From: a bacterium
Lineage (GTDB): Bacteria; Myxococcota; UBA727; JAUIJE01
Direction of reading: 5' to 3'
DNA: 64,000 bases
Assembly (NCBI GenBank): GCA_030431455.1
Contig: JAUIJE010000003.1
Location: 264,360 to 328,359 of the forward strand
A program made the position numbers and the translations under genes. Of the stretch, positions 7,923 to 62,703 are shown piece after piece. The notes below the pieces were generated by a model. It searched no databases. It saw nothing but the letters and a program-made list of their open reading frames with translations, and was not told the origin of the DNA. The stretch's first letter is position 1; each line of letters begins with the position of its first letter.

Positions 7923-8059
7923 CCCCGCCGGTGCACACCAAAGGGTGTGCGCGCCGGCGGCGCGGCGGTGTCGCAACCGTGTGAGACGCGCGGACGGGGC
8001 GCACCGAGAAGCGCGGGCGCGGGCTGGAACGGCGGATGCATTGAGCTGACCCAGGAAGG

Positions 8060-47616: not shown

Positions 47617-48072
47617 GTGCTCAGCGCCAAAAAGGCGGTGTTCTCGGTTGTGGCCGGGCTGATCCTGGCCGCGATGGCCTGGGTGATGACCAAATCGGTG
47701 GGCGACCCCACCACGTTGTATGTGCGCGCGCCACGGGACGTGTCGGTGTTTCTCGACGACCGGCGGCTGTCGGCGTGCAACGGCCAAGAGGGGTGTTCGC
47801 CCCCCGAAGAGCAAAAGTCCCTGAGCCAATACGTGTGGGGAATCTACGTCGGGTACAACTACATTGTGGAGGCCCGGCGCGATGGCGAGGTGGTGGCCCG
47901 GGTGCAGTTCGAGGCTGAGCCCGGGGAGGCACCGTCGATCTTGCTCGACTTCGAGGACGACTGGGTGGAGGCGGCCCCGCCCGTCGACGCGGCGGGGGCC
48001 CAGCACAACCTCGAGAAGGTCGACGTGAACTTCCGGCGTGACTTCGAAGGCAACGTCCACGTCGTGCCGTGA
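47617..48072 (+). CDS. Single-pass membrane protein, paralog A of a tandem pair
   Basis: N-terminal transmembrane helix (AVFSVVAGLILAAMAWVM), then a ~120-aa beta-rich domain (TTLYVRAPRDVSVFLDD...YIVEARRDGEVVARVQFEAEPGEAPSILLD). About 55% identical to the next gene; GTG start. Confidence 0.55.
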   Translation: MLSAKKAVFSVVAGLILAAMAWVMTKSVGDPTTLYVRAPRDVSVFLDDRRLSACNGQEGCSPPEEQKSLSQYVWGIYVGYNYIVEARRDGEVVARVQFEAEPGEAPSILLDFEDDWVEAAPPVDAAGAQHNLEKVDVNFRRDFEGNVHVVP

Positions 48073-48122: not shown

Positions 48123-48575
48123 TTGGGTATGCTGGGGGTGATGTTCAGTGCCAAAAAAGTCGTGTTTGCGGTGGTGTCGAGCCTGATCATCTCGGCCATG
48201 GGGTGGCTGATGATGAAGTCCACCGGCGAGCCCACCACGCTGTACCTGCGCACGCCCACCGATGTGGTGGTGTTCCTCGATGACAAGCAGCTGCGCCCCT
48301 GCACGGGCAAGACCGGCTGCGTGCCCCCCGAAGAGGGCGAGTGGATCCAGTATCGTTGGGGCATCTTCTCGGACACCAGGTACATTGTGGAGGCCCGGCG
48401 GGGGGGCACGGTGGTGGGCCGGGTCCAGATCGAGGCCACGCCGGGCGAGGCGCCGTCGGTGTTGCTCGACGACGAGGGCGACTGGGTCGAAGCCGCGCCC
48501 CCCGAGCGCCCCAAGATGCCCGACCTCGGCGCGCTGGGGGTGGATTTGGGCCTAGACGGCCCAAACGGCTCGTAG
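48123..48575 (+). CDS. Single-pass membrane protein, paralog B of a tandem pair
   Basis: Same architecture as paralog A (VVFAVVSSLIISAMGWLMM...TTLYLRTPTDVVVFLDD...YIVEARRGGTVVGRVQIEATPGEAPSVLLD). The true start is probably the ATG at 48141. Confidence 0.55.
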   Translation: MGMLGVMFSAKKVVFAVVSSLIISAMGWLMMKSTGEPTTLYLRTPTDVVVFLDDKQLRPCTGKTGCVPPEEGEWIQYRWGIFSDTRYIVEARRGGTVVGRVQIEATPGEAPSVLLDDEGDWVEAAPPERPKMPDLGALGVDLGLDGPNGS

Positions 48576-52691: not shown

Positions 52692-54410
52692 TTACTTTGT
52701 GTTTTCCGCGGGGACGAGGTCCCAGGTCGCGACGTTCCACGCCACCGGGGTCTGGGTCCCGGTGGGGGAAAAACCGACCAGCTCTTCTTTGGCCAGCGCC
52801 TCCACCGGACGGAAAAAGACCGGCACCGCGGGCAGCTCCTCGGCGTACACCTCTTGCACCTCGTGCATCATCCGGGTGCGCTCCTTCTCGTCGATCTCGT
52901 TGGGCACCCGGGGCAAGATGGAGCTCACCTTGGGGTTGCGCCAGCCGGGGTAGTTCTGTCCTTGCCAGTTGTTGTTGGCTGACGGGATCATGTCCTCCTG
53001 CCACAGGGTGTTGCCCCACGCGGTGGGGTCCATGGACCAGGAGTAGAACGTCATGTGCGGGGCTTTGCGGTACCGCAAGATGTCCCCGAAGAACGCTTTG
53101 GCGTTCTTGTTGTCGAGGTTGAGCTGCACCCCGATCTTGGCCAAGTCCGCGGCCATGATCGCCTGCATGCTGCGGATATCGGGAATACCGGCCACGGAGT
53201 TGAGGGTGAGGATGAGTTTTTGGCGGCCCTTTTTGCGCGGCTTGCCTTCCCCCTTGAACGCCCAGCCGGCCTCGTCGAGGAGCTTGCCCGCGGCGTCGAG
53301 GTCGAAGGGGTAGGTCTTGACCCCCGGGTGATAGCCCCAGTGGCGCGGGGGCAGGAACGTGTGGGCGATGGTGTACTTGCCCCCGTACAGCTTCTCGAGG
53401 ATGCCCTTGCGGTTGATGCCGTGGGCGATGGCCTGGCGCACGCGCTTGTCCGCGAGGATGGGGTCGTCGAGGTTGAAGTCGATGTGGGCCCAGACCAGAC
53501 CGGGGGCGATGTGGTGGCGGTAGACCCAGGGGGCGTTCTGCATCACCGCGTCGATTTCCGAGCTGGTCATGGGGGTCGAGGGCAAGACCCCGTCGATGTC
53601 GCCGGCGATGAGCGCGGCTTGGATCGCCGAGGTGTCTTTCATGAACCGCACCACGATCTCGTCGATGTGGGCGGGGGGGACGTAGGTGGGGTTCTTTTCG
53701 AGCACGATGTGCTGGCCCGGCAGCCACTCTTTGAACAGGTAAGGACCATTGGCGAGGGGTTTTTGGCCGAACACGTCCTGCTTCATGTTGGCGGTGCCCC
53801 CGCCGGGCTTGCGGTACCGCGGCTCGAGCACGTGCTGGGGCAGGCAATGGTGGTTTTCCCACTGGTGGTAGAACGCGAAGGGCTCCTTCCAGGTCACGAC
53901 CAGGGTCTTCTTGTCGTCGCCTTGGACCTCCATGCTCTCGATGCGCTCGGGGAGGTCGCGGTTGATGATCTCCTGGGTGGGATCCATTTGCATGTTCCAC
54001 GCGAACACGCAGTCCTCGGCGGTGACGGGCACGCCGTCCTGCCAGCTGGCGGTCTTTTTGATGTGCCAGATGACGCGCATCTTTTGGTGGCCGTCTTCGG
54101 CTTCGAAGATGCTCACGTCGCCGTTGTCGGTGGTGGGCACGCGCTCGGCGAGGTCGGGCACGATCTCCCAGCGGTCGTCGTGCATGGTGAGTTCGCGCAG
54201 GCCAAAAAAGATGACCTCGCGGGCCACCGCGGTCTCGGCGAACATCGGGTTGAGCGTGTCCGGCTCCGAGCCCAGCGCGAGCACCAGGCGCTTTTTCGCG
54301 GGGGGGGCGACGGGGCCTTTTTTCCCGTCGTCCTCGGGCGATTTTGTGCACGAGACGAGCACGAGCCCGACGAGCAACCAGCGGCATTGACACGATACGC
54401 GCCCGTTCAT
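52692..54410 (-). CDS. ABC transporter substrate-binding lipoprotein, family 5 (oligopeptide/dipeptide/nickel type)
   Basis: Lipobox (LVLVSCT), ~570-aa length, and family-5 substrate-binding protein sequence throughout (GPYLFKEWLPGQHIVLEKNPTY..., LNLDNKNAKAFFGDI...). No permease or ATPase genes are adjacent. Confidence 0.85.
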   Translation of the reverse strand: MNGRVSCQCRWLLVGLVLVSCTKSPEDDGKKGPVAPPAKKRLVLALGSEPDTLNPMFAETAVAREVIFFGLRELTMHDDRWEIVPDLAERVPTTDNGDVSIFEAEDGHQKMRVIWHIKKTASWQDGVPVTAEDCVFAWNMQMDPTQEIINRDLPERIESMEVQGDDKKTLVVTWKEPFAFYHQWENHHCLPQHVLEPRYRKPGGGTANMKQDVFGQKPLANGPYLFKEWLPGQHIVLEKNPTYVPPAHIDEIVVRFMKDTSAIQAALIAGDIDGVLPSTPMTSSEIDAVMQNAPWVYRHHIAPGLVWAHIDFNLDDPILADKRVRQAIAHGINRKGILEKLYGGKYTIAHTFLPPRHWGYHPGVKTYPFDLDAAGKLLDEAGWAFKGEGKPRKKGRQKLILTLNSVAGIPDIRSMQAIMAADLAKIGVQLNLDNKNAKAFFGDILRYRKAPHMTFYSWSMDPTAWGNTLWQEDMIPSANNNWQGQNYPGWRNPKVSSILPRVPNEIDEKERTRMMHEVQEVYAEELPAVPVFFRPVEALAKEELVGFSPTGTQTPVAWNVATWDLVPAENTK

Positions 54411-54542: not shown

Positions 54543-56003
54543 GTGGGACGTGACCCGTCATTTGCCGACAATCGCGCCGCCGGCCCCTGGGTGGTCGACC
54601 TCGACGGCACCTTGATCAAGACCGATCTGCTGGTCGAAAGCGCGCTGTTGTTGCTCAAACACAACCCGCTGTACCTGTTCTTGCTTCCCCTGTGGCTGGC
54701 CCGGGGCAAATCCGTGCTCAAGCAGGAGATCGCGCGCCGGGTCGACGTCGACCCCGCCCGCCTGCCCTACCGCGATGACGTGATCGCGTTCTTGCAGCAG
54801 GAGCGCGACCAGGGGCGCGTGCTCATCCTCGCCACCGCCAGCCACCAGAAGTACGCCGACGCGGTGGCTGCCCACCTCGGGCTGTTCGAGCGCGCCCTCG
54901 GCACCAGCGAGACCCACAACCTCAAAGGCAGCGGCAAGCTATCCACCCTGCAACAAGAGCTCGACGGGCCCTTCGGCTATCTCGGGGACAGCACCGCCGA
55001 CCGCCCCCTGTTCGAGCAGGCCGCGGCGTCGGTGCTCGTCGGCCGCTTGTCCCAAAATCCCGAACGGCACTTCAAGGGTGTCGCCTTCGCCCGCACCTTC
55101 CCCGAGAAGAAGCGCGGCGTGCGCCCGCTGATCAAGGCCCTCCGCCCCCACCAATGGGCCAAGAACGTCCTGATTTTTGTGCCCCTCGTCCTCGCCCACC
55201 GCATCTTCGACGTGCCCGCCCTCGTCGAGGCCGGCTTGGCGTTCGCGTCGTTTTCGCTTTGTGCGTCGAGCGTCTACGTGGTCAACGACCTGCTCGACCT
55301 GCCCTCGGACCGCGTTCACCACCGCAAAAAGACCCGCCCGTTCGCGTCCGGCGACCTGCCCGTGCTCACCGGCATGTGGCTCGCCCCCGCGTTGCTCGGG
55401 GCCGCGTTTGTGCTCGCCGCCCTCGCCCTGTCCGTCGAGTTCCTCCTCGTGCTCGCCGCCTACTATGTGGTCACCACCCTCTACTCGGTGGTGCTCAAGC
55501 GCATCGTGCTCATCGACGTGCTCGTGCTCGCCGGGCTCTACACCCTGCGCATCGGGGCCGGGGCCGCCGCCACCCACACCCCGATTTCGCACTGGCTGTT
55601 CACGTTTTCGCTGTTCTTCTTTTTGAACCTCGCGTTCGTCAAGCGCTTCATCGAGCTCGACACCCTGCAAAAGCGCGGCGACGCCAGCGCCGAGGGCCGC
55701 GGCTACCGCGTCGCCGACCACGGCCGGGTCAGCCAGCTCGGCACCGCCGCCGGCTACGCGTCCATCCTCGTGCTCGCCCTGTACATCAACAGCCCGAGCG
55801 TGACCCGGCTGTACCCGTCGCCCACGCTCTTGTGGGGCCTGCTCCCGCCGTTTTTGTATTGGGTCAACCGCGTGTGGATCATCGCCGGGCGCGGGGAGAT
55901 GCACGACGACCCCATCGTGTTCGCGCTCAAGGACAAGGTCAGCTACGCGGTGGTGGCGAGCCTGGCCGCGGTGCTGCTCGCGGCCAAGCTGTGGACGGTG
56001 TGA
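54543..56003 (+). CDS. HAD-like phosphatase fused to a UbiA-family prenyltransferase (decaprenyl-phosphate phosphoribosyltransferase-like)
   Basis: N-terminal HAD motif I (VVDLDGTL) plus motif II/III context (ILATASH, GDSTADRPLF). The C-terminal 8-TM UbiA domain has NDLLDLPSDRVHHRKKTRPFASG (NDxxDxxxD) and a second Asp-rich motif. Confidence 0.75.
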   Translation: MGRDPSFADNRAAGPWVVDLDGTLIKTDLLVESALLLLKHNPLYLFLLPLWLARGKSVLKQEIARRVDVDPARLPYRDDVIAFLQQERDQGRVLILATASHQKYADAVAAHLGLFERALGTSETHNLKGSGKLSTLQQELDGPFGYLGDSTADRPLFEQAAASVLVGRLSQNPERHFKGVAFARTFPEKKRGVRPLIKALRPHQWAKNVLIFVPLVLAHRIFDVPALVEAGLAFASFSLCASSVYVVNDLLDLPSDRVHHRKKTRPFASGDLPVLTGMWLAPALLGAAFVLAALALSVEFLLVLAAYYVVTTLYSVVLKRIVLIDVLVLAGLYTLRIGAGAAATHTPISHWLFTFSLFFFLNLAFVKRFIELDTLQKRGDASAEGRGYRVADHGRVSQLGTAAGYASILVLALYINSPSVTRLYPSPTLLWGLLPPFLYWVNRVWIIAGRGEMHDDPIVFALKDKVSYAVVASLAAVLLAAKLWTV

Positions 56004-56018
56004 GCCCACCGCACCGGG

Positions 56019-56044
56019 CTTGTGCTCCGCCCCACCTCCTCTAG
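56019..56044 (+). repeat. Copy 1 of a perfect 26-bp direct repeat, cttgtgctccgccccacctcctctag
   Basis: Identical 26-mer at 56019-56044 and 56172-56197 in the 232-bp intergenic region between the UbiA-fusion and SDR genes. Confidence 0.9.
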
Positions 56045-56171
56045 CTTTCCGAGGGGAATGTCCCATTCCCCTCCCCCGCTTGCGCCTCGCAAGCTCGGCG
56101 TTCACGGGGCCCCCACCCCAATGTCGCTGCTCCAGGGGCCTCCGGCCCGTCGCAGCGGTGTGGCATTCGCT

Positions 56172-56197
56172 CTTGTGCTCCGCCCCACCTCCTCTAG
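56172..56197 (+). repeat. Copy 2 of the 26-bp direct repeat, 38 nt upstream of the SDR start
   Basis: Same 26-mer as copy 1. Confidence 0.9.
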
Positions 56198-56234
56198 ACT
56201 CACGGCCACGTTCGGCTGCGACCAGGAGCTTTGT

Positions 56235-56969
56235 ATGACCCACATCGTGATCTACGGGGCGACGTCCGCCATCGGCCAGGCCACCGCCCGGGCCTTCGCC
56301 GACGAGGGCGCCCACTTCTTCCTCGTGGGCCGGGACCTCGCCCGCACCGACCAGGTCGCGCAAGACCTGCAGAGCCGCGGGGCCCAAGCCACCGCCTGCG
56401 TGCTCGATGTGCTCGACTTCGATGCCCACCAGGCCACCGTCGAGCAGGCGCGCCAAAGCCTCGGCCAAGTGGACATCGTGCTGTTCTGCCACGGGGTGCT
56501 CGGCGACCAAGCGGAAGCGGAGAAGGACTACGCCGCGGCCGAGCGCATTCTCCAGGTGAACTTCCTGAGCGTGGTCAGCCTCGGCGGGATGTGGGCCAAT
56601 GTCCTTGAAGAACAGGGCCACGGCACCCTCGCCGCGGTGTCGTCGGTGGCCGGGGACCGGGGCCGGCAAAGCAATTACATGTACGGCACCGCCAAAGGCG
56701 CGGTGAGCATCTTCCTGTCCGGTCTGCGCAACCGCCTGTTCAACAAGGGGGTGCACGTGTGCGACATCAAGCCCGGGTTTGTGTCCACCCCGATGACCGC
56801 CCACCTCGACCAAGGCCCGCTGTTCGCCGACGCCGACAAGGTGGGGCGTCAGATCAAAGAAGCGATCCGCGGCCGCAAAGACGAAGCCTACGTGCCCGGC
56901 TTCTGGCGACCGATCATGGGGGCGATCCGGGCCGTGCCCGAACCCCTGTTCAAGCGCATGAAGCTATAG
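56235..56969 (+). CDS. SDR-family oxidoreductase resembling decaprenylphospho-2-keto-pentose reductase (DprE2-like)
   Basis: The Rossmann start IVIYGATSAIGQATARAF and the catalytic YxxxK (YMYGTAKGAV) are present. It is co-linear with my recollection of mycobacterial DprE2, including the short 244-aa length and C-terminal ...PGFWRPIMGAIRAVPEPLFKRMKL. Confidence 0.75.
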   Translation: MTHIVIYGATSAIGQATARAFADEGAHFFLVGRDLARTDQVAQDLQSRGAQATACVLDVLDFDAHQATVEQARQSLGQVDIVLFCHGVLGDQAEAEKDYAAAERILQVNFLSVVSLGGMWANVLEEQGHGTLAAVSSVAGDRGRQSNYMYGTAKGAVSIFLSGLRNRLFNKGVHVCDIKPGFVSTPMTAHLDQGPLFADADKVGRQIKEAIRGRKDEAYVPGFWRPIMGAIRAVPEPLFKRMKL

Positions 56970-56997: not shown

Positions 56998-58434
56998 TCA
57001 GGGGCAGTCGGGCTCGGCCGCGCCGAGGTCGAACACCGCGGCCGCGGCCCACTGGGAGGGGTCGAACGCCTCGCCGCTCGACCACACCGCCGGGTCCCGC
57101 TCGAACGTCGCCGATTGGTAGCTCGGGTGGGCCACGCTGCCGTCCGCGGTGCCGTAGGCGTCGCGCACCAGGCCGGTGTCGTCCTCGATGAACAGCCGTT
57201 CGGTGCCGAACAGCTGGGCCGGGGCGTTGTTCATCTCGAGCACGGTGTCGCACAGCGCGGCGGGGTCGGGGACGGCGGACAAAAAGCCCACCGGGTCGGT
57301 GGTGGCGATGAGGCCCCCCCCCGGGGGAATGGTCACCGCGCCCTCGACGATGGTGCTGAACGAGGTGTTGGCCCCGTCGACGATGCGAAAGATCCAGTTC
57401 TGTACGCTGATGGGCGCGTCGCCTTGGTTGACCACGCGGTAGGCGACGATGCCGGTGCCGGTGTCGGTGTGGGCGAGGTACCGCAATGTGATGGGATGGC
57501 CGCCGCCGGAGCAGGCCGCGCCGTCGTCAAAAATGGACGCGCCCTGGTCTTGGGCCTCGCAGGCGCTGTCGAAGGGAATGGTCCCGCCGCATCCGCACAC
57601 CGGCCCCTGCACCGCGGCGAAGCAGCCGTCGTGCTGGGCCGCGCACACCCCGTCGATGCCGCAGGTGCGCGGGGGAAACCGGCAGTACTCGTCGTCGGCG
57701 CAGCCCTCGTTGTCGGTGCACGCCACCGCGTCTCCGCAGGCGCCGTCGACGGCGTCGAACCCCGCGAGGTTGGCATCGAGCTGCGAGCCGTAGGTGCGCC
57801 CGTCGCAACCGCACACCTCTGCGCCACCGAAGGCCAAGGTGTCGTCCACCTCGTTGCAGGTGCCGTTCTCCACCGCGCAGCCGCCGACAAAGCAGAACAG
57901 CCCCACCCCGCAGCCCCCGTCGGACCCGTCGCGCAGACACTCGCTCCCGGCGGCATCGACGCAGCCGTTGCCCACCCCGAGCTGCCCGAGGGTGGCATCG
58001 CAGCGTTGGCCGGGCGCACATTGGAACGCGGGGTTCACGTCGTACAGGCACTCGCCAGTGTCACTGCACACCGCGGTGTGACACCCGAGGTCGGGACAGT
58101 CGCAGGGCGCACAGCCGTCGTCGTCACGGTCCGGGGCCTTGGGGTCACAAAATTGGGTGTCGCCGCACAGGCCGGCCACCGCCTCCTCGACGACGCAGTC
58201 GCCGTTGGGGTCACAAAAGCCCGTGGCCATGCAAGCGAACGGGCAATCGCCGTCGCACGCCCCGTTGTCCGGGAGCTCGTCGACGCAAAAGCCCGCCCCG
58301 AGGTCACACCGGGGGGTCACAAACGGGCAATCGTCGTCGGTGACACAGTCGAACTCCGCCTGCAGAATGTTGACGCACCCGGGCAAACCCGTCGTCACCA
58401 AAAGCCCCATCACCACCAGCCGCCACCGATTCAT
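56998..58434 (-). CDS. Cys-rich lipoprotein with a Kazal-like motif and a C-terminal lamin-tail-like domain
   Basis: Lipobox (LVTTGLPGC), about 60 Cys, and CGCDGRTYGSQ resembling the Kazal core (CGSDGxTY). The C-terminal ~130 aa (GIVAYRVVNQGDAPISVQNWIFRIVDG...) are LTD-like. Confidence 0.6.
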   Translation of the reverse strand: MNRWRLVVMGLLVTTGLPGCVNILQAEFDCVTDDDCPFVTPRCDLGAGFCVDELPDNGACDGDCPFACMATGFCDPNGDCVVEEAVAGLCGDTQFCDPKAPDRDDDGCAPCDCPDLGCHTAVCSDTGECLYDVNPAFQCAPGQRCDATLGQLGVGNGCVDAAGSECLRDGSDGGCGVGLFCFVGGCAVENGTCNEVDDTLAFGGAEVCGCDGRTYGSQLDANLAGFDAVDGACGDAVACTDNEGCADDEYCRFPPRTCGIDGVCAAQHDGCFAAVQGPVCGCGGTIPFDSACEAQDQGASIFDDGAACSGGGHPITLRYLAHTDTGTGIVAYRVVNQGDAPISVQNWIFRIVDGANTSFSTIVEGAVTIPPGGGLIATTDPVGFLSAVPDPAALCDTVLEMNNAPAQLFGTERLFIEDDTGLVRDAYGTADGSVAHPSYQSATFERDPAVWSSGEAFDPSQWAAAAVFDLGAAEPDCP

Positions 58435-58436
58435 GC

Positions 58437-59354
58437 CTATTCACCCATCACGAAGGAAAGGCCCACCAGGCCACCGCCCACGGCCAACCCCCCGCCCAAC
58501 AACACCACCGCCCCCGCGCCGCTCGCCATCGCGCCGATGTAAGCCACATTGGGGGGCAACAAGCGCTGCTCGACCGGACCGAGCTGGGTGTCGAACACGA
58601 ACGCCCCCAGCGCCGCTGCCCCCCCGCCGACCACGCCCACCGCCATCGCGCTGAGCCCGCTGATCAACCACACGTTCAGGCCGCCCCCCCCGCCGGCCGC
58701 GGCCGAGGCGAAGCGCGGGGACGAAGACGAGGGCGGCAACGCCGCGCCCTCGGGCAGCAGCGGGCCGACCAAACGATCGATGCTCGGCTCGACCTCGTGG
58801 GCGAGGTCCTCGATGCGTTCGGTGCGGAGGTCCTCGCGGCCCACCGAGCGGCCGGCCTCCGCGTCGTACAGGTTGAGCTGGACGATGTAGATCGAGCCCA
58901 GACGACCCACTTGGCCAAAGATCACAAAGTCCGCGCCCATCGCCCCGGCGACCTCGGCCAAGCAGCTCGACTCTTCGCAGCCCACCGCCTGGCGTTGGCC
59001 CTCGAGCTCGACCAACCGGGCGATGTCGGCGGCGGTCATCACGTTGAGCTGCGGGTGGCGCGAGAGCGCGTCCGCGACGAGGCCCTCGACCAGCTTGGCC
59101 GGTCCCGATTCGACGTCGATGGCGGTGAGGTTCATCACCAACACCTGGTGGGTCTCGACGGGGGGGGCCGGATCGGGGCCCGCCTCCTCGGCGGGGACCG
59201 GGTCCGCCGCGGGCGCGCGCTCGTCGTCGTCGGGCGCGGCGGGGGTCCCTTCGTCCGCGGCCGCCGCGGGCTCGGCCGCCTCGGTGGCCCCCGCGGGCGC
59301 GTCATCGACCCAGCCCGCGCTCAACAACAGCGCGGCGCACATTGCCCAGCTCAT
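58437..59354 (-). CDS. Hypothetical secreted protein or lipoprotein with a C-terminal Gly/Ala-rich membrane anchor
   Basis: Start MSWAMCAALLLSAGW, an acidic Pro/Ala-rich region, a globular middle (LVELEGQRQAVGCEESSCLAEVAGAMGADFVIFGQVGRLGSIYIVQLNLYD), and a C-terminal GGGAAALGAFVF...GGGLVGLSFVMGE hydrophobic helix. Its stop abuts the downstream gene start. Confidence 0.5.
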   Translation of the reverse strand: MSWAMCAALLLSAGWVDDAPAGATEAAEPAAAADEGTPAAPDDDERAPAADPVPAEEAGPDPAPPVETHQVLVMNLTAIDVESGPAKLVEGLVADALSRHPQLNVMTAADIARLVELEGQRQAVGCEESSCLAEVAGAMGADFVIFGQVGRLGSIYIVQLNLYDAEAGRSVGREDLRTERIEDLAHEVEPSIDRLVGPLLPEGAALPPSSSSPRFASAAAGGGGGLNVWLISGLSAMAVGVVGGGAAALGAFVFDTQLGPVEQRLLPPNVAYIGAMASGAGAVVLLGGGLAVGGGLVGLSFVMGE

Positions 59355-59499
59355 CCAGCCTCCCGGGCCAAAACCTACCACGCGCGTCGAGCACCGCACG
59401 ATTTTGACCCCTTTGCGCCGCGGTGGTTCACGCCGTGCCATTTCCGCAGGGCCGATCCCGCGCGCGCCCGCGTTTCGCCCCACACGAGGAGGAGCGCGG

Positions 59500-60846
59500 A
59501 TGATGCGGGCACAGTGGGTTTTGGTGGCGGTGGTCGTGGCGGTGGCGCCGGTCGTCGGGTGCGCGGGCGCGGCCGCGGGCAACGGCGACGGCGACGGGGA
59601 TGGCGACGGAGACTGGCCGCCTGACGGCGGCTTGGAAGAACCGTCGGACGGCGGAGCCGCCGACTCCGGTTCTTCAGGCGACGGCGACGGCGATGGCGAT
59701 GGCGATGGCGATGGCGACGGAGACGGAAGCTGCGCGGGCCGGTGCGGGGCGCCGTTCGATGACGCCGCCCTGTGTCAGTGCAACCCCGGTTGCGCCGGCT
59801 TTGGCGACTGTTGCGATGACCACGCGGCGCTGTGTGGCGGCGGAGACTGGCCGCCTGACGGCGGCTTGGAAGAACCGTCGGACGGCGGAGCCGCCGACTC
59901 CGGTTCTTCAGGCGACGGGGACGGGGACGGCGACACCAGCTGTGCGGGCCGGTGCGGGGACAGCTACGATCCGGCCCTCGCGTGCCAATGCAACCCCGCC
60001 TGCGCCGACTTCGGCAACTGCTGCGACGACTATGCGCCGCTGTGCACAGATTCGACCGCGTCCTGTGCCGGCCGGTGCGGGGACAGCTACGATCCGGCCC
60101 TCGCCTGCCAATGCAACCCCGCCTGCGCCGACTTCGGAAACTGCTGCGATGACTACGACACCCAGTGCACGGCGCCGGGGCCCGAATGCGGGGCGCCCTT
60201 GCTGGTCCAGGGCCAGGTCCACACCAGCATCGCGGACCTGGCCGTGAGCAACGGCGCCCTGTCCGGCTACGACGTGGTGCACAAGATCGACATCGACCCG
60301 GTGGAGGACGGCTGCGTGGGCGAGGTCAGGCTCGCGGTGCAGTTTCATCCCCAGGGGTGCTTGCTCAGTCTGGACTTTTTTGTGGACAGCGGCGGCAACG
60401 GCTACCTCGACGACATCTTCCTCGACGCGGACAGCTTCTGCCCCGGCTTCCTAGACGCCCAAGAGGGCACGTACCATTTGGCCTACGAAGGCAACTACGG
60501 CAACGGTTTTGCCCGCCAGGTCGCGCTGTGGCCGACGGGGCTGCCCGCGACGGTGCCCGACGCGCAGGCCGACGCGTCCTGCCTCGCGGACGTGGTGGTG
60601 GGTTTTCCCGACCTGGACCTGCCCTTGGCGCGCGACGCCAGCGACGCCATCTTGTGGACCAACCTGCACGACCTCACCTTGTCCGGCGGGCTTGTCACCG
60701 AAGGGGACCAAAGCGCCCACTGCCGCCAAGCCACCGCGTGTCCGGCCGGGACCGTCGACGGGGGCCAGGCGATGTGCTTCTCCCCGCCCTACTGCGACAG
60801 CGGGTTTGTGTACGACTACGCGACCGCGACCTGCGGGCCGAGCTGA
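59500..60846 (+). CDS. Lipoprotein with (Gly-Asp)n linkers, three tandem somatomedin-B-like domains and a C-terminal domain of unknown function
   Basis: AGGAGG RBS 8 nt upstream and a lipobox (VVGCAG). Three copies of C-x-GRCG-x8-10-CQCNP-x-C-x2-FG-x-CCDDY-x3-C, which is the 8-Cys somatomedin-B pattern. Confidence 0.7.
   Translation: MMRAQWVLVAVVVAVAPVVGCAGAAAGNGDGDGDGDGDWPPDGGLEEPSDGGAADSGSSGDGDGDGDGDGDGDGDGSCAGRCGAPFDDAALCQCNPGCAGFGDCCDDHAALCGGGDWPPDGGLEEPSDGGAADSGSSGDGDGDGDTSCAGRCGDSYDPALACQCNPACADFGNCCDDYAPLCTDSTASCAGRCGDSYDPALACQCNPACADFGNCCDDYDTQCTAPGPECGAPLLVQGQVHTSIADLAVSNGALSGYDVVHKIDIDPVEDGCVGEVRLAVQFHPQGCLLSLDFFVDSGGNGYLDDIFLDADSFCPGFLDAQEGTYHLAYEGNYGNGFARQVALWPTGLPATVPDAQADASCLADVVVGFPDLDLPLARDASDAILWTNLHDLTLSGGLVTEGDQSAHCRQATACPAGTVDGGQAMCFSPPYCDSGFVYDYATATCGPS
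59608..59685 (+). repeat. Perfect 78-bp direct repeat inside the CDS, copy 1 (copy 2 at 59843-59920), encoding DWPPDGGLEEPSDGGAADSGSSGDG
   Basis: ggagactggccgcctgacggcggcttggaagaaccgtcggacggcggagccgccgactccggttcttcaggcgacgg occurs twice, 235 bp apart, each followed by GD repeats and an SMB module. Confidence 0.85.
59940..60165 (+). repeat. Near-identical ~105-bp tandem duplication encoding SMB-like domains 2 and 3
   Basis: The DNA encoding CAGRCGDSYDPALACQCNPACADFGNCCDDY is repeated with only a few substitutions. Confidence 0.8.
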
Positions 60847-61113: not shown

Positions 61114-62703
61114 ATGACCCGCCACCAAGCAACGCGCGGCGCCGCCCTGGTGGGGTTGGCGGTGGCCCCGTCGTCCGTGCTCGCGGCGGGGGCGTGGTTG
61201 TCGGTGTGGCCGGCGGTGCCGCGCGCCCTCGGGCTGCTGGGCTTGATGGTGCTCGGGCTCGCCCTCACCGCGCTGCCGGTTCTCGTCGGGGGCGCGGGGC
61301 CGCTGCGCCGTCTCTACAATGCCCATGCAAGCGCGTGGCGGGCCCTGGGCCTCGGGATCTGGCTCGCGCTCATCGCCCTCGCCGGCCACTGGGCCGGGCC
61401 CGAGGACGTGACCGCCGACGTCAAGGTGCGGGCGGCGACCGGCGCGGTGTTCGCCAGCGTGGCCGACCGCGTCGACGCCGACCAGTTCGCCCACGCCCTT
61501 TTGTACGCGGACAGCCGCGGCCAGGCCCGGCTCGCGGGGGTGGACGCCTTTTACGATCCCGGGCTCGGCCGGCTCCTGCCCCGCCGGGCCGCGGTGGAGC
61601 GCGAACCGGCGGTGACCGGCGCGCCCGATGACCCCGCCCTCCGCGCCGCCGCCGCCCGGCTTGCAGAATCATTGTCAACCACCGAGACCGCGGCCGCCTT
61701 CGCCACCCCGCCGCCCCGGATCGCGCCCCTGCGGCTGTGGGTGATGCACGAGGTCGACGCCCGGTTTGCCCCCACCGCGGCGACGTGGCGGGCCCTGGAC
61801 TTTGTCGCCGCCGGCTTGTGCGCGCTCGCCTTGGCGTGGGCGTTTTCTCCGTCGGTGGCGTGGCTCGGGTTGTTGTTCCTGCTCGCGGGCCTCGGCGCGC
61901 TGCGCTTCGCCGCCCCCGGGCTCACCCTCGACGGGGTGTGCGCGCTGGTGGGGGCGCTTTGTTTTCTGCGGCGGGGGCACGGCGCCGCCGCCGGCGTGTG
62001 TCTGGCCGCGGGGGTGCTGCTCGATCCGGTGGCGGGCTGGTTTGTGGTGCCGGTGGCGGTGGCGCGGGCGGCCCGGCGGGGACACCCAGGCACATTGGCC
62101 CGGGTGGGCCCGGCCGCGCTCATCACCCTCGTCGGGTTGTGGGGGGTGTGCGCGGCCGGGCTCGGGCCCGGCCACGCCAAGGCGGCCCTGGGGGGCGCCT
62201 ACGCGTCGCTGGTCGCGCCGGAGACCACGGGGTGGGGTCTGGGCGGCCTGGTCGGCAGCGGCCCGTACGGCCTCTTGGGGCCCGCCCAGCGGGCATTGGC
62301 GCTCTTGAGCGTGACCCTGGTGTGGGTCTACGGGTGGCGCACCCGGCGACCGGCGTGGCAGACGATGTGGCTCGGCTGGTTGCCGCTGTTCGCGTTTTCC
62401 GCGGTCAGCCTCGACGATCTCGCGTTCCGGGTGTTGTTCCTCGCGCCCTGGGCCGCCTCCTTGCGCACCCCCGGCCGGGTGTGGATGGGGGTGGTGCTGC
62501 TGTTGCCGGAGCTTCTTTCCTACGCGCCCGGGGCGGCCTCTGGCCTCTCTGCGCTCGACCCGGGCTGGGCCCTGTTGCTGTTGTGGCTCGTGGCGGCCGG
62601 ACCCGTGGCCGCGGCCGCGCTGCAGCGACGGTATTGGGCGCGGCCGCACCGCATCGCCGAACGCAGCCGCAAAATCATGTCCGCGCCCGGCGGCGGCCCC
62701 TGA
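61114..62703 (+). CDS. Polytopic integral membrane protein of unknown function
   Basis: Start MTRHQATRGAALVGLAVAP, about 530 aa with 10-12 predicted transmembrane helices rich in Leu/Ala/Gly/Trp. The stop overlaps the Nudix start (TGATG). Confidence 0.55.
   Translation: MTRHQATRGAALVGLAVAPSSVLAAGAWLSVWPAVPRALGLLGLMVLGLALTALPVLVGGAGPLRRLYNAHASAWRALGLGIWLALIALAGHWAGPEDVTADVKVRAATGAVFASVADRVDADQFAHALLYADSRGQARLAGVDAFYDPGLGRLLPRRAAVEREPAVTGAPDDPALRAAAARLAESLSTTETAAAFATPPPRIAPLRLWVMHEVDARFAPTAATWRALDFVAAGLCALALAWAFSPSVAWLGLLFLLAGLGALRFAAPGLTLDGVCALVGALCFLRRGHGAAAGVCLAAGVLLDPVAGWFVVPVAVARAARRGHPGTLARVGPAALITLVGLWGVCAAGLGPGHAKAALGGAYASLVAPETTGWGLGGLVGSGPYGLLGPAQRALALLSVTLVWVYGWRTRRPAWQTMWLGWLPLFAFSAVSLDDLAFRVLFLAPWAASLRTPGRVWMGVVLLLPELLSYAPGAASGLSALDPGWALLLLWLVAAGPVAAAALQRRYWARPHRIAERSRKIMSAPGGGP

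What the first reader, a model, noticed from the sequence alone, without database searches (positions are those of the whole stretch)
54543..56969. HAD-phosphatase::UbiA-prenyltransferase fusion next to a DprE2-like short-chain reductase: a possible polyprenyl-phospho-pentose donor pathway outside actinobacteria
The UbiA domain carries the NDxxDxxxD motif and resembles decaprenyl-phosphate phosphoribosyltransferases. Its N-terminus is a full HAD phosphatase (DLDGTL...), which could replace the separate phospho-ribose phosphatase of the mycobacterial DPA pathway. The adjacent 244-aa SDR is co-linear with DprE2 from N- to C-terminus as far as I can judge from memory of that family. No DprE1-like FAD oxidase is in the window. 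Together these would make a lipid-linked arabinose- or ribose-type sugar donor for a cell-envelope glycan.
Basis: partly seen in the sequence, partly recalled or inferred. Interest (0 to 1): 0.6.

Follow-up and report, generated by a model that had tools for sequence, protein, structure and literature searches.

The report
Lipid-linked pentose donor genes, oxidase missing
Two adjacent genes encode a known type of fused enzyme that makes a lipid-linked ribose sugar donor and a reductase that normally helps turn it into arabinose; this is an ordinary new example of a widespread pathway, unusual only because the partner oxidase gene is not next to them.

Summary
Gene 54543-56003 (+) encodes a 486-aa HAD phosphatase::UbiA fusion. 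Gene 56235-56969 (+) encodes a 244-aa SDR whose nearest solved relative is M. tuberculosis DprE2. The 64-kb window holds no DprE1-like oxidase.

This fusion architecture was characterised biochemically in Citrobacter youngae ORF15 (Kelly et al. 2024, PMC11127046). There it acts as a polyprenyl-phosphoribofuranose synthase with a built-in 5'-phosphatase. DprE1/DprE2 homologues making D-arabinofuranose donors are already known in Pseudomonas aeruginosa.

The fusion matches NCBIfam PRK08238 over its full length, and the search returned more than 7,800 homologues. In 168 related loci, 82 carry fusion + DprE1-like + SDR, and 35 carry the fusion alone. Only two loci, both among the window's closest relatives, carry the SDR without the oxidase, as the window does. 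A sister lineage with the same upstream synteny has the reverse: the oxidase without the SDR.

The missing oxidase is therefore most likely encoded elsewhere in the genome, but I could not check this. No GT-C transferase or flippase was identified in the window, and the target glycan is unknown. Verdict: a new member of a known kind, low interest.

The parts
54543..56003 (+). Gene for a bifunctional polyprenyl-phosphate 5-phosphoribosyltransferase (UbiA-type, C-terminal) fused to a HAD-family 5'-phosphoribose phosphatase (N-terminal); 486 aa
   Evidence: Pfam HAD + UbiA. NCBIfam NF006088/PRK08238 matches full length at 620 bits against a cut-off of 351. The AF2 model has pLDDT 94.3.
54585..55103 (+). 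HAD phosphatase domain (about residues 15-187), with motif I D19xD21xT23, motif II T98, motif III K132 and motif IV D153
   Evidence: These residues are invariant or at least 90% conserved in the family. The model shows a Rossmann-like alternation of strands and helices plus a helical cap. Foldseek matches SerB-type HAD phosphatases.
55119..55991 (+). UbiA-fold membrane domain (about residues 193-483), with N248-D249-xx-D252-xxx-D256-R257 and K367-R368-xx-E371
   Evidence: Best PDB sequence hit is Rv3806c 8j8j, E 2e-26. Best fold match is 8j8j_A with target TM-score 0.85, rmsd 2.9 A and 28% identity, against 0.65-0.73 for other UbiA enzymes. The motif residues are conserved.
56004..56234 (.). 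231-bp spacer between the two genes. It holds an exact 26-bp direct repeat (56019-56044 and 56172-56197) and a perfect 10-bp hairpin (56051-56073).
   Evidence: The spacer is longer than in relatives L002 (87 bp) and L167 (73 bp). It contains no remnant of a DprE1-like gene. No promoter or terminator consensus was found.
56235..56969 (+). Gene for a DprE2-type classical SDR (244 aa), the predicted polyprenyl-phospho-2'-keto-pentofuranose reductase
   Evidence: NCBIfam PRK07102 scores 298 bits (cut-off 267); the DprE2 model scores 196 bits (cut-off 250). Best PDB hit is DprE2, E 9e-35. It keeps 56 of 59 positions that are at least 90% conserved among SDRs paired with DprE1-like oxidases, including N109, S137, Y150 and K154.
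61114..62703 (+). Multi-pass membrane protein (529 aa from M at 61114). It is only tentatively linked to the two genes, and it is not shown to be a glycosyltransferase.
   Evidence: It has weak but above-shuffle similarity (47 bits; shuffles 18.3 +/- 1.9) to the 622-aa membrane protein that directly follows the SDR in relatives L002/L167. No Pfam, NCBIfam or PDB match. Only 2 weak hits in 1.84 billion representatives. The AF2 model is unusable, pLDDT 46.8.

Best explanation
The two genes form the front end of a lipid-linked pentofuranose donor pathway of the kind described by Kelly et al. 2024. The proposed steps are as follows. (1) At the cytoplasmic face of the membrane, the UbiA-fold domain transfers ribofuranose-5-phosphate from PRPP to a polyprenyl phosphate, probably undecaprenyl phosphate. 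(2) The fused HAD domain removes the 5'-phosphate, giving polyprenyl-phospho-ribofuranose. (3) A DprE1-type FAD oxidase oxidises C2'. That oxidase is not in this window and is presumed to be encoded elsewhere in the genome. (4) The adjacent DprE2-type SDR reduces the 2'-keto intermediate with NAD(P)H to polyprenyl-phospho-D-arabinofuranose. (5) A flippase and a GT-C transferase, neither identified here, would then attach the pentose to an unknown envelope glycan or protein outside the cytoplasm. The domain identities and family memberships are shown by sequence and fold. The catalytic activities are inferred from characterised homologues. The existence of the oxidase, the flippase and the transferase in this organism, and hence arabinose as the final product, is inferred only.
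For: Fusion identity: full-length match to NF006088; intact HAD and Asp-rich motifs; a high-confidence model whose membrane domain best matches Rv3806c. An enzyme with the same architecture was shown biochemically to make polyprenyl-P-Ribf (PMC11127046). SDR identity: the best solved relative is DprE2, by 18 orders of magnitude. The Hyalangium SDR that sits beside a DprE1-like oxidase belongs to the same NCBIfam family. The catalytic residues are conserved. Functional linkage: among 168 related loci, 82 have fusion + DprE1-like + SDR, and 68 of those are colinear with gaps under 300 bp. Oxidase probably elsewhere: in the NJ tree the window's fusion is sister to L169, which shares the divergent SBP_bac_5 gene upstream (51% identity). 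L169 has the opposite partial arrangement, fusion + DprE1-like with no SDR. A third syntenic relative, L173, has neither gene within the fetched flanks. So this lineage has the oxidase and has rearranged the locus. Arabinose use in the clade: the relative L002 follows its SDR with an AftB-like GT-C (NCBIfam E 6e-18; PDB 9dlf E 2e-14). In P. aeruginosa both DprE1 and DprE2 are required for arabinosylation.
Against: No DprE1-like gene occurs in 64 kb. A search with the sister lineage's DprE1-like protein listed 120 top hits. None came from the window's 736,849-bp contig, and none had its 'ncbi,lgn, unnamed' source signature. This is weak negative evidence, because the list stops at about 55% identity. 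The relatives L002/L167 have a long, apparently complete operon (fusion, SDR, membrane proteins including an AftB-like one) without an oxidase, which is odd if an oxidase is needed. No flippase or recognisable GT-C is in the window. The SDR misses NCBI's curated DprE2 cut-off (196 vs 250 bits), so equivalence to DprE2 rests on homology and context, not on a passed equivalog test.
Confidence: 0.6

Rival explanations
1. The organism makes only a ribofuranose donor, or the pathway is decaying. The fusion is functional, but the SDR is an orphan left over after loss of the oxidase, has no substrate, and is on its way to being lost.
For: 35 of the loci with adequate flanks carry the fusion with neither epimerase gene, so ribose-only systems are common. 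The syntenic relative L173 has neither gene within the fetched flanks. The locus is clearly in flux in this lineage. Kelly et al. note that gain or loss of epimerase genes switches the pentose.
Against: The SDR keeps 56 of 59 family-conserved positions and the whole catalytic tetrad, and its three changes are conservative. Third-position GC of the stop-to-stop frame that contains it (56004-56969) is 0.85, typical of a coding frame here. The same SDR-only arrangement persists in two other relatives at about 55% identity (L002, L167), which implies long-term retention under selection.
Confidence: 0.15
2. In this small clade (window, L002, L167) the DprE2-type SDR works without a DprE1-type oxidase. 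It would act either as a stand-alone epimerase using tightly bound NAD+/NADH, or with a non-homologous oxidase.
For: The three SDR-only loci form one clade in the SDR tree. L002 and L167 have operons without an oxidase: fusion, SDR and a 622-aa membrane protein in both, and in L002 also an AftB-like GT-C and further membrane proteins. Seventeen positions are shared by the three SDRs and rare (<10%) in DprE1-partnered SDRs, several of them in residues 184-199, after the PGF motif. There is a precedent for a single SDR epimerising a polyprenyl-P-pentofuranose: ORF13 of C. youngae O2 at C3.
Against: ORF13 is a GalE-like SDR, not a DprE2-like one. Clade-specific substitutions are expected from shared ancestry alone, and only three sequences are available. 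Overall divergence of the SDR from DprE1-partnered SDRs (44-56% identity) is no greater than that of the fusion protein. The sister lineage L169 keeps a DprE1-like gene. Both enzymes are required in P. aeruginosa and mycobacteria.
Confidence: 0.15
3. The genes are unrelated to sugar donors. The UbiA domain prenylates an aromatic or haem substrate (quinone or haem O synthesis), and the SDR is a generic ketoreductase.
For: Source annotations call relatives '4-hydroxybenzoate polyprenyltransferase'. Pfam only reports the generic UbiA and adh_short families.
Against: The ubiA_proteo model scores 26.6 bits against a cut-off of 275, and the haem O synthase model 41 bits against 210. The DPPRS models score 110-148 bits, and Rv3806c is the best sequence and fold match. 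The SDR's best hit is DprE2. Colinear linkage with DprE1-like oxidases is seen in 68 loci.
Confidence: 0.02

Closest known systems
Citrobacter youngae O1 ORF15, polyprenyl phosphoribofuranose synthase (PRP-PPPRS), and its three-component pentofuranose glycosylation system (Kelly et al. 2024, PMC11127046)
   Same: Same architecture: an N-terminal HAD-family phosphoribose phosphatase fused to a C-terminal UbiA-fold phosphoribosyltransferase. The Asp of the HAD motif and the Asp-rich and Arg/Glu residues of the transferase are conserved in the window protein (D19; N248/D249/D252/D256; R368/E371), near the positions mutated in ORF15 (D18; D247/D248/D251; R366/E369). An auxiliary epimerase gene lies beside it.
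   Different: I could not align the ORF15 sequence directly, so residue correspondence is by position and family conservation only. In C. youngae the partners are a MATE flippase, a GT136 GT-C and, in O2, a GalE-like SDR (ORF13). The window has a DprE2-like SDR and no recognisable flippase or GT-C.
Pseudomonas aeruginosa PA7/Pa5196 D-arabinofuranose cluster PsPA7_6245-6249 (bioRxiv 10.1101/2020.04.19.049825 and the work it cites)
   Same: It is a non-actinobacterial pathway using a DPPR-synthase homologue, DprE1 and DprE2 to make a lipid-linked D-Araf donor. DprE1 and DprE2 are both required and interact.
   Different: In P. aeruginosa the phosphatase is a separate protein, DprE1 and DprE2 are adjacent, and a GtrA-like protein is in the cluster. 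Here the phosphatase is fused, and the oxidase and the GtrA-like gene are absent from the window.
Mycobacterium tuberculosis DPA pathway: Rv3806c (DPPRS), Rv3807c (phosphatase), DprE1 (Rv3790), DprE2 (Rv3791)
   Same: The UbiA domain's best solved relative is Rv3806c (28% identity, target TM-score 0.85). The SDR's best solved relative is DprE2, aligned end to end. The reaction logic is the same: PRPP to lipid-P-ribose-5-P, to lipid-P-ribose, to the 2'-keto form, to lipid-P-arabinose.
   Different: Neither window protein reaches NCBI's curated cut-off for the actinobacterial equivalogs (148 vs 207; 196 vs 250). The phosphatase is HAD-type and fused rather than a separate, unrelated Rv3807c. The lipid is probably undecaprenyl rather than decaprenyl (inference). 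DprE1 is not linked.
NCBIfam NF006088 (PRK08238, 'UbiA family prenyltransferase') and NF005489 (PRK07102, 'SDR family oxidoreductase')
   Same: Both window proteins pass the curated cut-offs over the full model length. These are the generic names under which this gene pair is annotated in many genomes.
   Different: The family names carry no functional information. The functional reading comes from the 2024 biochemical work and from gene context.

Membership tests
PRP-PPPRS fusion (NCBIfam NF006088/PRK08238; C. youngae ORF15 type) | Full-length match to the family profile above the curated cut-off | tested here: met
   620.1 bits against a cut-off of 351; residues 11-482 match profile positions 9-480 of 482.
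PRP-PPPRS fusion (NCBIfam NF006088/PRK08238; C. youngae ORF15 type) | N-terminal HAD domain with catalytic motifs (DxDxT, Thr/Ser, Lys, Asp) | tested here: met
   D19/D21/T23, T98, K132 and D153 are present and invariant or at least 90% conserved. Pfam HAD E 1e-9. The fold matches SerB-type HAD phosphatases.
PRP-PPPRS fusion (NCBIfam NF006088/PRK08238; C. youngae ORF15 type) | C-terminal UbiA-fold membrane domain closest to DPPRS, with two charged active-site motifs | tested here: met
   8j8j is the best sequence match (E 2e-26) and the best fold match (target TM-score 0.85). NDxxDxxxDR and KRxxE are conserved.
PRP-PPPRS fusion (NCBIfam NF006088/PRK08238; C. youngae ORF15 type) | Direct alignment to ORF15 at the residues shown essential by mutagenesis (D18, D247, D248, D251, R366, E369) | not tested
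Only the numbering from the paper and family conservation could be compared.
PRP-PPPRS fusion (NCBIfam NF006088/PRK08238; C. youngae ORF15 type) | Makes polyprenyl-P-ribofuranose from PRPP and polyprenyl phosphate | not testable with these tools
   This needs the in vitro assay with farnesyl-P or undecaprenyl-P described in PMC11127046.
Actinobacterial decaprenyl-phosphate phosphoribosyltransferase (NF008976/NF008977/NF008978) | Score above the curated equivalog cut-off | tested here: not met
   147.8 vs 207, 140 vs 234 and 109.4 vs 474 bits. The protein is a homologue, not an equivalog, and it carries an extra HAD domain.
DprE2 (NF053786, decaprenylphospho-2'-keto-pentose reductase) | Score above the curated equivalog cut-off | tested here: not met
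   196.4 bits against a cut-off of 250. The Hyalangium SDR next to a DprE1-like gene scores the same way, 197.5 bits.
DprE2-type SDR outside actinobacteria (NF005489/PRK07102) | Score above the cut-off; end-to-end colinearity with DprE2; catalytic Asn-Ser-Tyr-Lys present | tested here: met
   297.7 bits against 267. Residues 4-242 align to DprE2 residues 12-252, E 9e-35. N109, S137, Y150 and K154 are conserved.
DprE2-type SDR outside actinobacteria (NF005489/PRK07102) | Genetic linkage to a DprE1-type FAD oxidase | tested here: not met
   None in the 64-kb window. Linkage is the rule elsewhere: 82 of the 121 loci that could be classified.
Three-component extracytoplasmic pentofuranose glycosylation system (PPPRS + flippase + GT-C) | A flippase candidate (MATE, GtrA/SMR or similar) near the synthase | tested here: not met
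   No such Pfam family appears among about 50 window ORFs. One may be encoded elsewhere.
Three-component extracytoplasmic pentofuranose glycosylation system (PPPRS + flippase + GT-C) | A GT-C glycosyltransferase that uses the lipid-linked donor | tested here: inconclusive
   No Pfam, NCBIfam or PDB match, and no tblastn hit with the AftB-like protein of L002. The membrane protein at 61114-62703 is weakly similar to a cluster-associated membrane protein of L002/L167, but its fold could not be modelled.
Aromatic or haem prenyltransferases (UbiA, MenA, CyoE/CtaB) | Score above the curated cut-offs | tested here: not met
   ubiA_proteo 26.6 vs 275; cyoE_ctaB 41.4 vs 210.

The most novel reading that the evidence does not exclude
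A small clade of bacteria (this window plus the L002/L167 lineage) has dispensed with the DprE1 flavoenzyme. It would convert polyprenyl-phospho-ribofuranose to arabinofuranose (or another pentofuranose) using the DprE2-type SDR alone, as a redox-neutral epimerase, or using a non-homologous oxidase.
Probability: 0.15. Interest if true: 0.55.

Novelty: new member of a known kind. Interest (0 to 1): 0.2.

Why it matters
If the main reading holds, this adds one more uncultured, high-GC bacterium to the long list of organisms predicted to decorate an envelope glycan or protein with a pentofuranose through a lipid-linked donor. It has some annotation value: the fusion is still widely mislabelled '4-hydroxybenzoate polyprenyltransferase' or 'UbiA family prenyltransferase', and the reductase 'SDR family oxidoreductase'. 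The only point of wider interest is the rare reductase-without-oxidase arrangement. If these organisms truly lack a DprE1-type oxidase, that would point to an alternative route to lipid-linked arabinose. This matters because DprE1 and DprE2 are tuberculosis drug targets. The present evidence favours the plain explanation, an unlinked oxidase gene.

Tried and rejected
1. Identifying the source genome. The exact proteins are on record from an NCBI contig of 736,849 bp and from Logan runs ERR3420974/ERR3428548, but only short Logan contigs could be fetched. The genome is not among the GTDB representatives scanned; the best hit there is 50% identical. RpsB and EF-Ts sit in single-member, unnamed clusters. 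Taxonomy is therefore unresolved; a Myxococcota-like Gram-negative is only an inference from relatives.

2. Finding the missing DprE1 in the same genome. I searched with the sister lineage's DprE1-like protein. None of the 120 listed hits shares the window's contig length or source signature. Amino-acid composition did not discriminate candidates. The result is inconclusive.

3. Looking for a remnant of a deleted DprE1 gene in the 231-bp spacer. None was found.

4. Testing the membrane protein at 61114-62703 as a GT-C. There were no family or PDB hits. The word-index search found only the protein itself. The exhaustive HMMER search found 2 weak hits. The single-sequence AF2 model had pLDDT 46.8, so I ran no fold search on it.

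5. The quinone or haem prenyltransferase reading was rejected on profile scores and fold.

6. A search of Pfam and NCBIfam for hidden oxidoreductases among the unannotated proteins of L002 and L169 found nothing.

7. My second literature search, with generic terms, was useless.
Full report
**What is in the sequence.** The window is about 70% GC throughout, and real genes stand out by third-position GC near 0.9. At the finding's coordinates there are two co-directional genes.

Gene A is 54543-56003 (+), with a GTG start, and encodes 486 aa. It carries Pfam HAD (residues 18-158) and UbiA (219-442).

Gene B is 56235-56969 (+), with an ATG start, and encodes 244 aa. It is a classical short-chain dehydrogenase (adh_short, E 1.5e-39). 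The longer ORF from 56022 listed is only an upstream extension of the frame. The 244-aa product is the one on record in the protein collection, and it matches the family's N-terminus.

**Identity of gene A.**
- It matches NCBIfam NF006088 (PRK08238) end to end at 620 bits, against a cut-off of 351.
- The three actinobacterial decaprenyl-phosphate phosphoribosyltransferase models are the next best (110-148 bits) but fall below their cut-offs.
- Haem O synthase and 4-hydroxybenzoate prenyltransferase models score only 20-41 bits.
- Its best solved relative by sequence is M. tuberculosis Rv3806c (8j8j, E 2e-26).
- An AlphaFold2 model built on 41 homologues has mean pLDDT 94.3.
- The membrane domain of that model superposes best on 8j8j (target TM-score 0.85, rmsd 2.9 A, 28% identity). 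Other UbiA enzymes reach 0.65-0.73 at 15-17% identity.
- The N-terminal domain matches SerB-type HAD phosphatases.
- The HAD motifs (D19xD21xT23, T98, K132, D153) are invariant or at least 90% conserved across the family. So are the transferase motifs (N248-D249-xx-D252-xxx-D256-R257; K367-R368-xx-E371). The window protein departs from strongly conserved residues at only two positions, 141 and 362.

**Identity of gene B.**
- It passes NCBIfam NF005489 (PRK07102: 298 bits, cut-off 267).
- Its second-best model is DprE2 (NF053786: 196 bits, cut-off 250).
- Against the PDB its best hit is M. tuberculosis DprE2, aligned from residue 4 to 242 at E 9e-35. The next SDR is at 4e-17.
- The SDR that sits directly beside a DprE1-like oxidase in Hyalangium versicolor has the same profile: PRK07102 at 322 bits and DprE2 at 197 bits. 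The Hyalangium oxidase hits the DprE1 model at 379 bits.
- PRK07102 is therefore the family that plays the DprE2 role outside actinobacteria.
- The window SDR keeps 56 of the 59 positions that are at least 90% conserved among 79 such oxidase-partnered SDRs. These include N109, S137, Y150 and K154.

**What is already known.** Kelly et al. 2024 (PMC11127046) showed biochemically that C. youngae ORF15 makes polyprenyl-phospho-ribofuranose from PRPP. ORF15 is an N-terminal HAD phosphoribose phosphatase fused to a C-terminal UbiA-family phosphoribosyltransferase. It works with a flippase and a GT-C transferase. Auxiliary epimerases set the final pentose: a GalE-like SDR for xylofuranose, or DprE1/DprE2 homologues for arabinofuranose. 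[quoted passage not shown] In P. aeruginosa Pa5196/PA7, homologues of Rv3806c, DprE1 and DprE2 are all required for pilin arabinosylation, and DprE1 and DprE2 interact.

**How common the fusion is, and in what company.**
- The fusion has more than 7,800 homologues at E<=1e-10 in the word-indexed search, which was capped at 8,000 candidates.
- Among species-representative genomes, 429 relatives were confirmed. The best 80 come from Caballeronia, Paraburkholderia, Xanthomonas, Stenotrophomonas, Salinisphaera, Competibacteraceae, Parvibaculum, Planctomycetota, Myxococcales, Bdellovibrionota, Chlorobiota and others. None is an actinobacterium.
- I combined these with 80 metagenome loci and the contexts of the closest relatives, then classified 168 non-redundant loci.

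| Arrangement | Loci |
|---|---|
| Fusion + DprE1-like + DprE2-like SDR | 82 (68 colinear, gaps under 300 bp) |
| Fusion alone, adequate flanks | 35 |
| Oxidase only | 2 (L040, L169) |
| SDR only | 2 (L002, L167) |
| Flanks too short to call | 47 |

The window's SDR-only arrangement is therefore rare.

**The local evolutionary picture.** In a neighbour-joining tree of the SDRs, the three SDR-only sequences (window, L002, L167) form one clade, next to Hyalangium. In the fusion tree the window is sister to L169, and these two group with L002/L167 and then Hyalangium.

L169 and L173 share the window's upstream synteny: a divergently transcribed SBP_bac_5 gene, 51-52% identical. Each has a different state downstream of the fusion:
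- The window has the SDR only.
- L169 has a DprE1-like oxidase only.
- L173 has neither within the fetched flanks, about 10 kb on each side.

Under the canonical mechanism, a lone oxidase or a lone reductase is useless. The simplest reading is that this lineage has scattered the epimerase genes, and that the window's oxidase is encoded elsewhere. L002 supports arabinose use in the clade. Its operon continues with a GT-C related to the arabinofuranosyltransferase AftB (NCBIfam E 6e-18; PDB 9dlf E 2e-14).

**What remains open.**
- I could not reach the rest of the source genome.
- A search seeded with L169's oxidase did not reveal a candidate from the same contig. The list, however, ends at about 55% identity, which is where such a protein might lie.
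- The window contains no oxidase remnant, no recognisable flippase and no recognisable GT-C.
- The multi-pass membrane protein at 61114-62703 is weakly similar to the protein that follows the SDR in L002/L167 (47 bits against 18.3 +/- 1.9 for shuffles). It is otherwise almost an orphan, and it could not be modelled. Its involvement is speculative.
- The L002/L167 operons look complete yet lack an oxidase. The three SDR-only proteins share 17 residues that are rare in partnered SDRs. I therefore keep a 15% reading in which this clade does not need DprE1. A decaying or ribose-only pathway gets another 15%.

**Verdict.** The gene identities are secure, and the mechanism of the first two steps is well supported by a characterised homologue of the same architecture. 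The arabinose end-product is plausible but depends on an unseen oxidase. This is a new member of a known kind with an atypical split gene arrangement. Interest is low (0.2).

Noticed in passing
window 56004-56234: The spacer between the fusion gene and the SDR holds an exact 26-bp direct repeat (CTTGTGCTCCGCCCCACCTCCTCTAG at 56019-56044 and 56172-56197; none expected by chance). It flanks a perfect 10-bp hairpin (56051-56073). Two independent short-read assemblies (Logan contigs L001 and L005) break at about 56074/56075, just after the hairpin. This could be a regulatory element, a small repeat element or a rearrangement scar.
   Followed up: partly
window 47617-48072 and 48123-48575: Two tandem paralogous genes encode 151- and 150-aa proteins with an N-terminal hydrophobic segment. 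They are 64% identical over 122 aa. They were not scanned against any family library.
   Followed up: partly
window 59023-60846: A secreted-looking protein carries three Somatomedin B domains (Pfam E 3e-30) and long Gly-Asp repeats. This is a mostly eukaryotic domain in a bacterial genome. It sits among other Cys-rich secreted proteins (56998-58434 and 58437-59582, minus strand) that have no family match.
   Followed up: no
window 61114-62703: A 529-aa Ala/Gly/Leu-rich multi-pass membrane protein is nearly an orphan, with only two weak hits among 1.84 billion representative proteins.
   Followed up: yes
L171 9087-10010; L175 5203-6126; JGI contig: In another lineage, an LPG_synthase_TM gene (the MprF flippase-like domain) lies directly upstream of the fusion and overlaps its start by about 10 bases. 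It is followed by fusion, DprE1-like and SDR, with a GT2-GtrA fusion and a PMT_2 GT-C nearby. It is a candidate flippase for the lipid-linked pentose and differs from the MATE and GtrA/SMR types discussed in the literature.
   Followed up: no
L169 10001-12875; L040 10001-12749: These loci have the fusion followed by a DprE1-like oxidase, with no DprE2-type SDR within the fetched flanks (about 8.5-10 kb on each side). This is the mirror image of the window's arrangement.
   Followed up: partly
L002 10318-16593: Downstream of the SDR in the closest relatives lie three large membrane proteins (622, 666 and 615 aa) and a 182-aa protein, followed by a DUF2079 protein. Only the 666-aa one is recognisable, as AftB-like. 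The others have no Pfam, NCBIfam or PDB match and may be uncharacterised glycosyltransferases.
   Followed up: partly
window 52692-54410 (-): The divergently transcribed SBP_bac_5 solute-binding protein gene upstream of the fusion is conserved in position in L169/L170 and L173 (51-52% identity). This unexplained linkage between a peptide/nickel-type binding protein and the pentose-donor gene is restricted to this lineage.
   Followed up: partly
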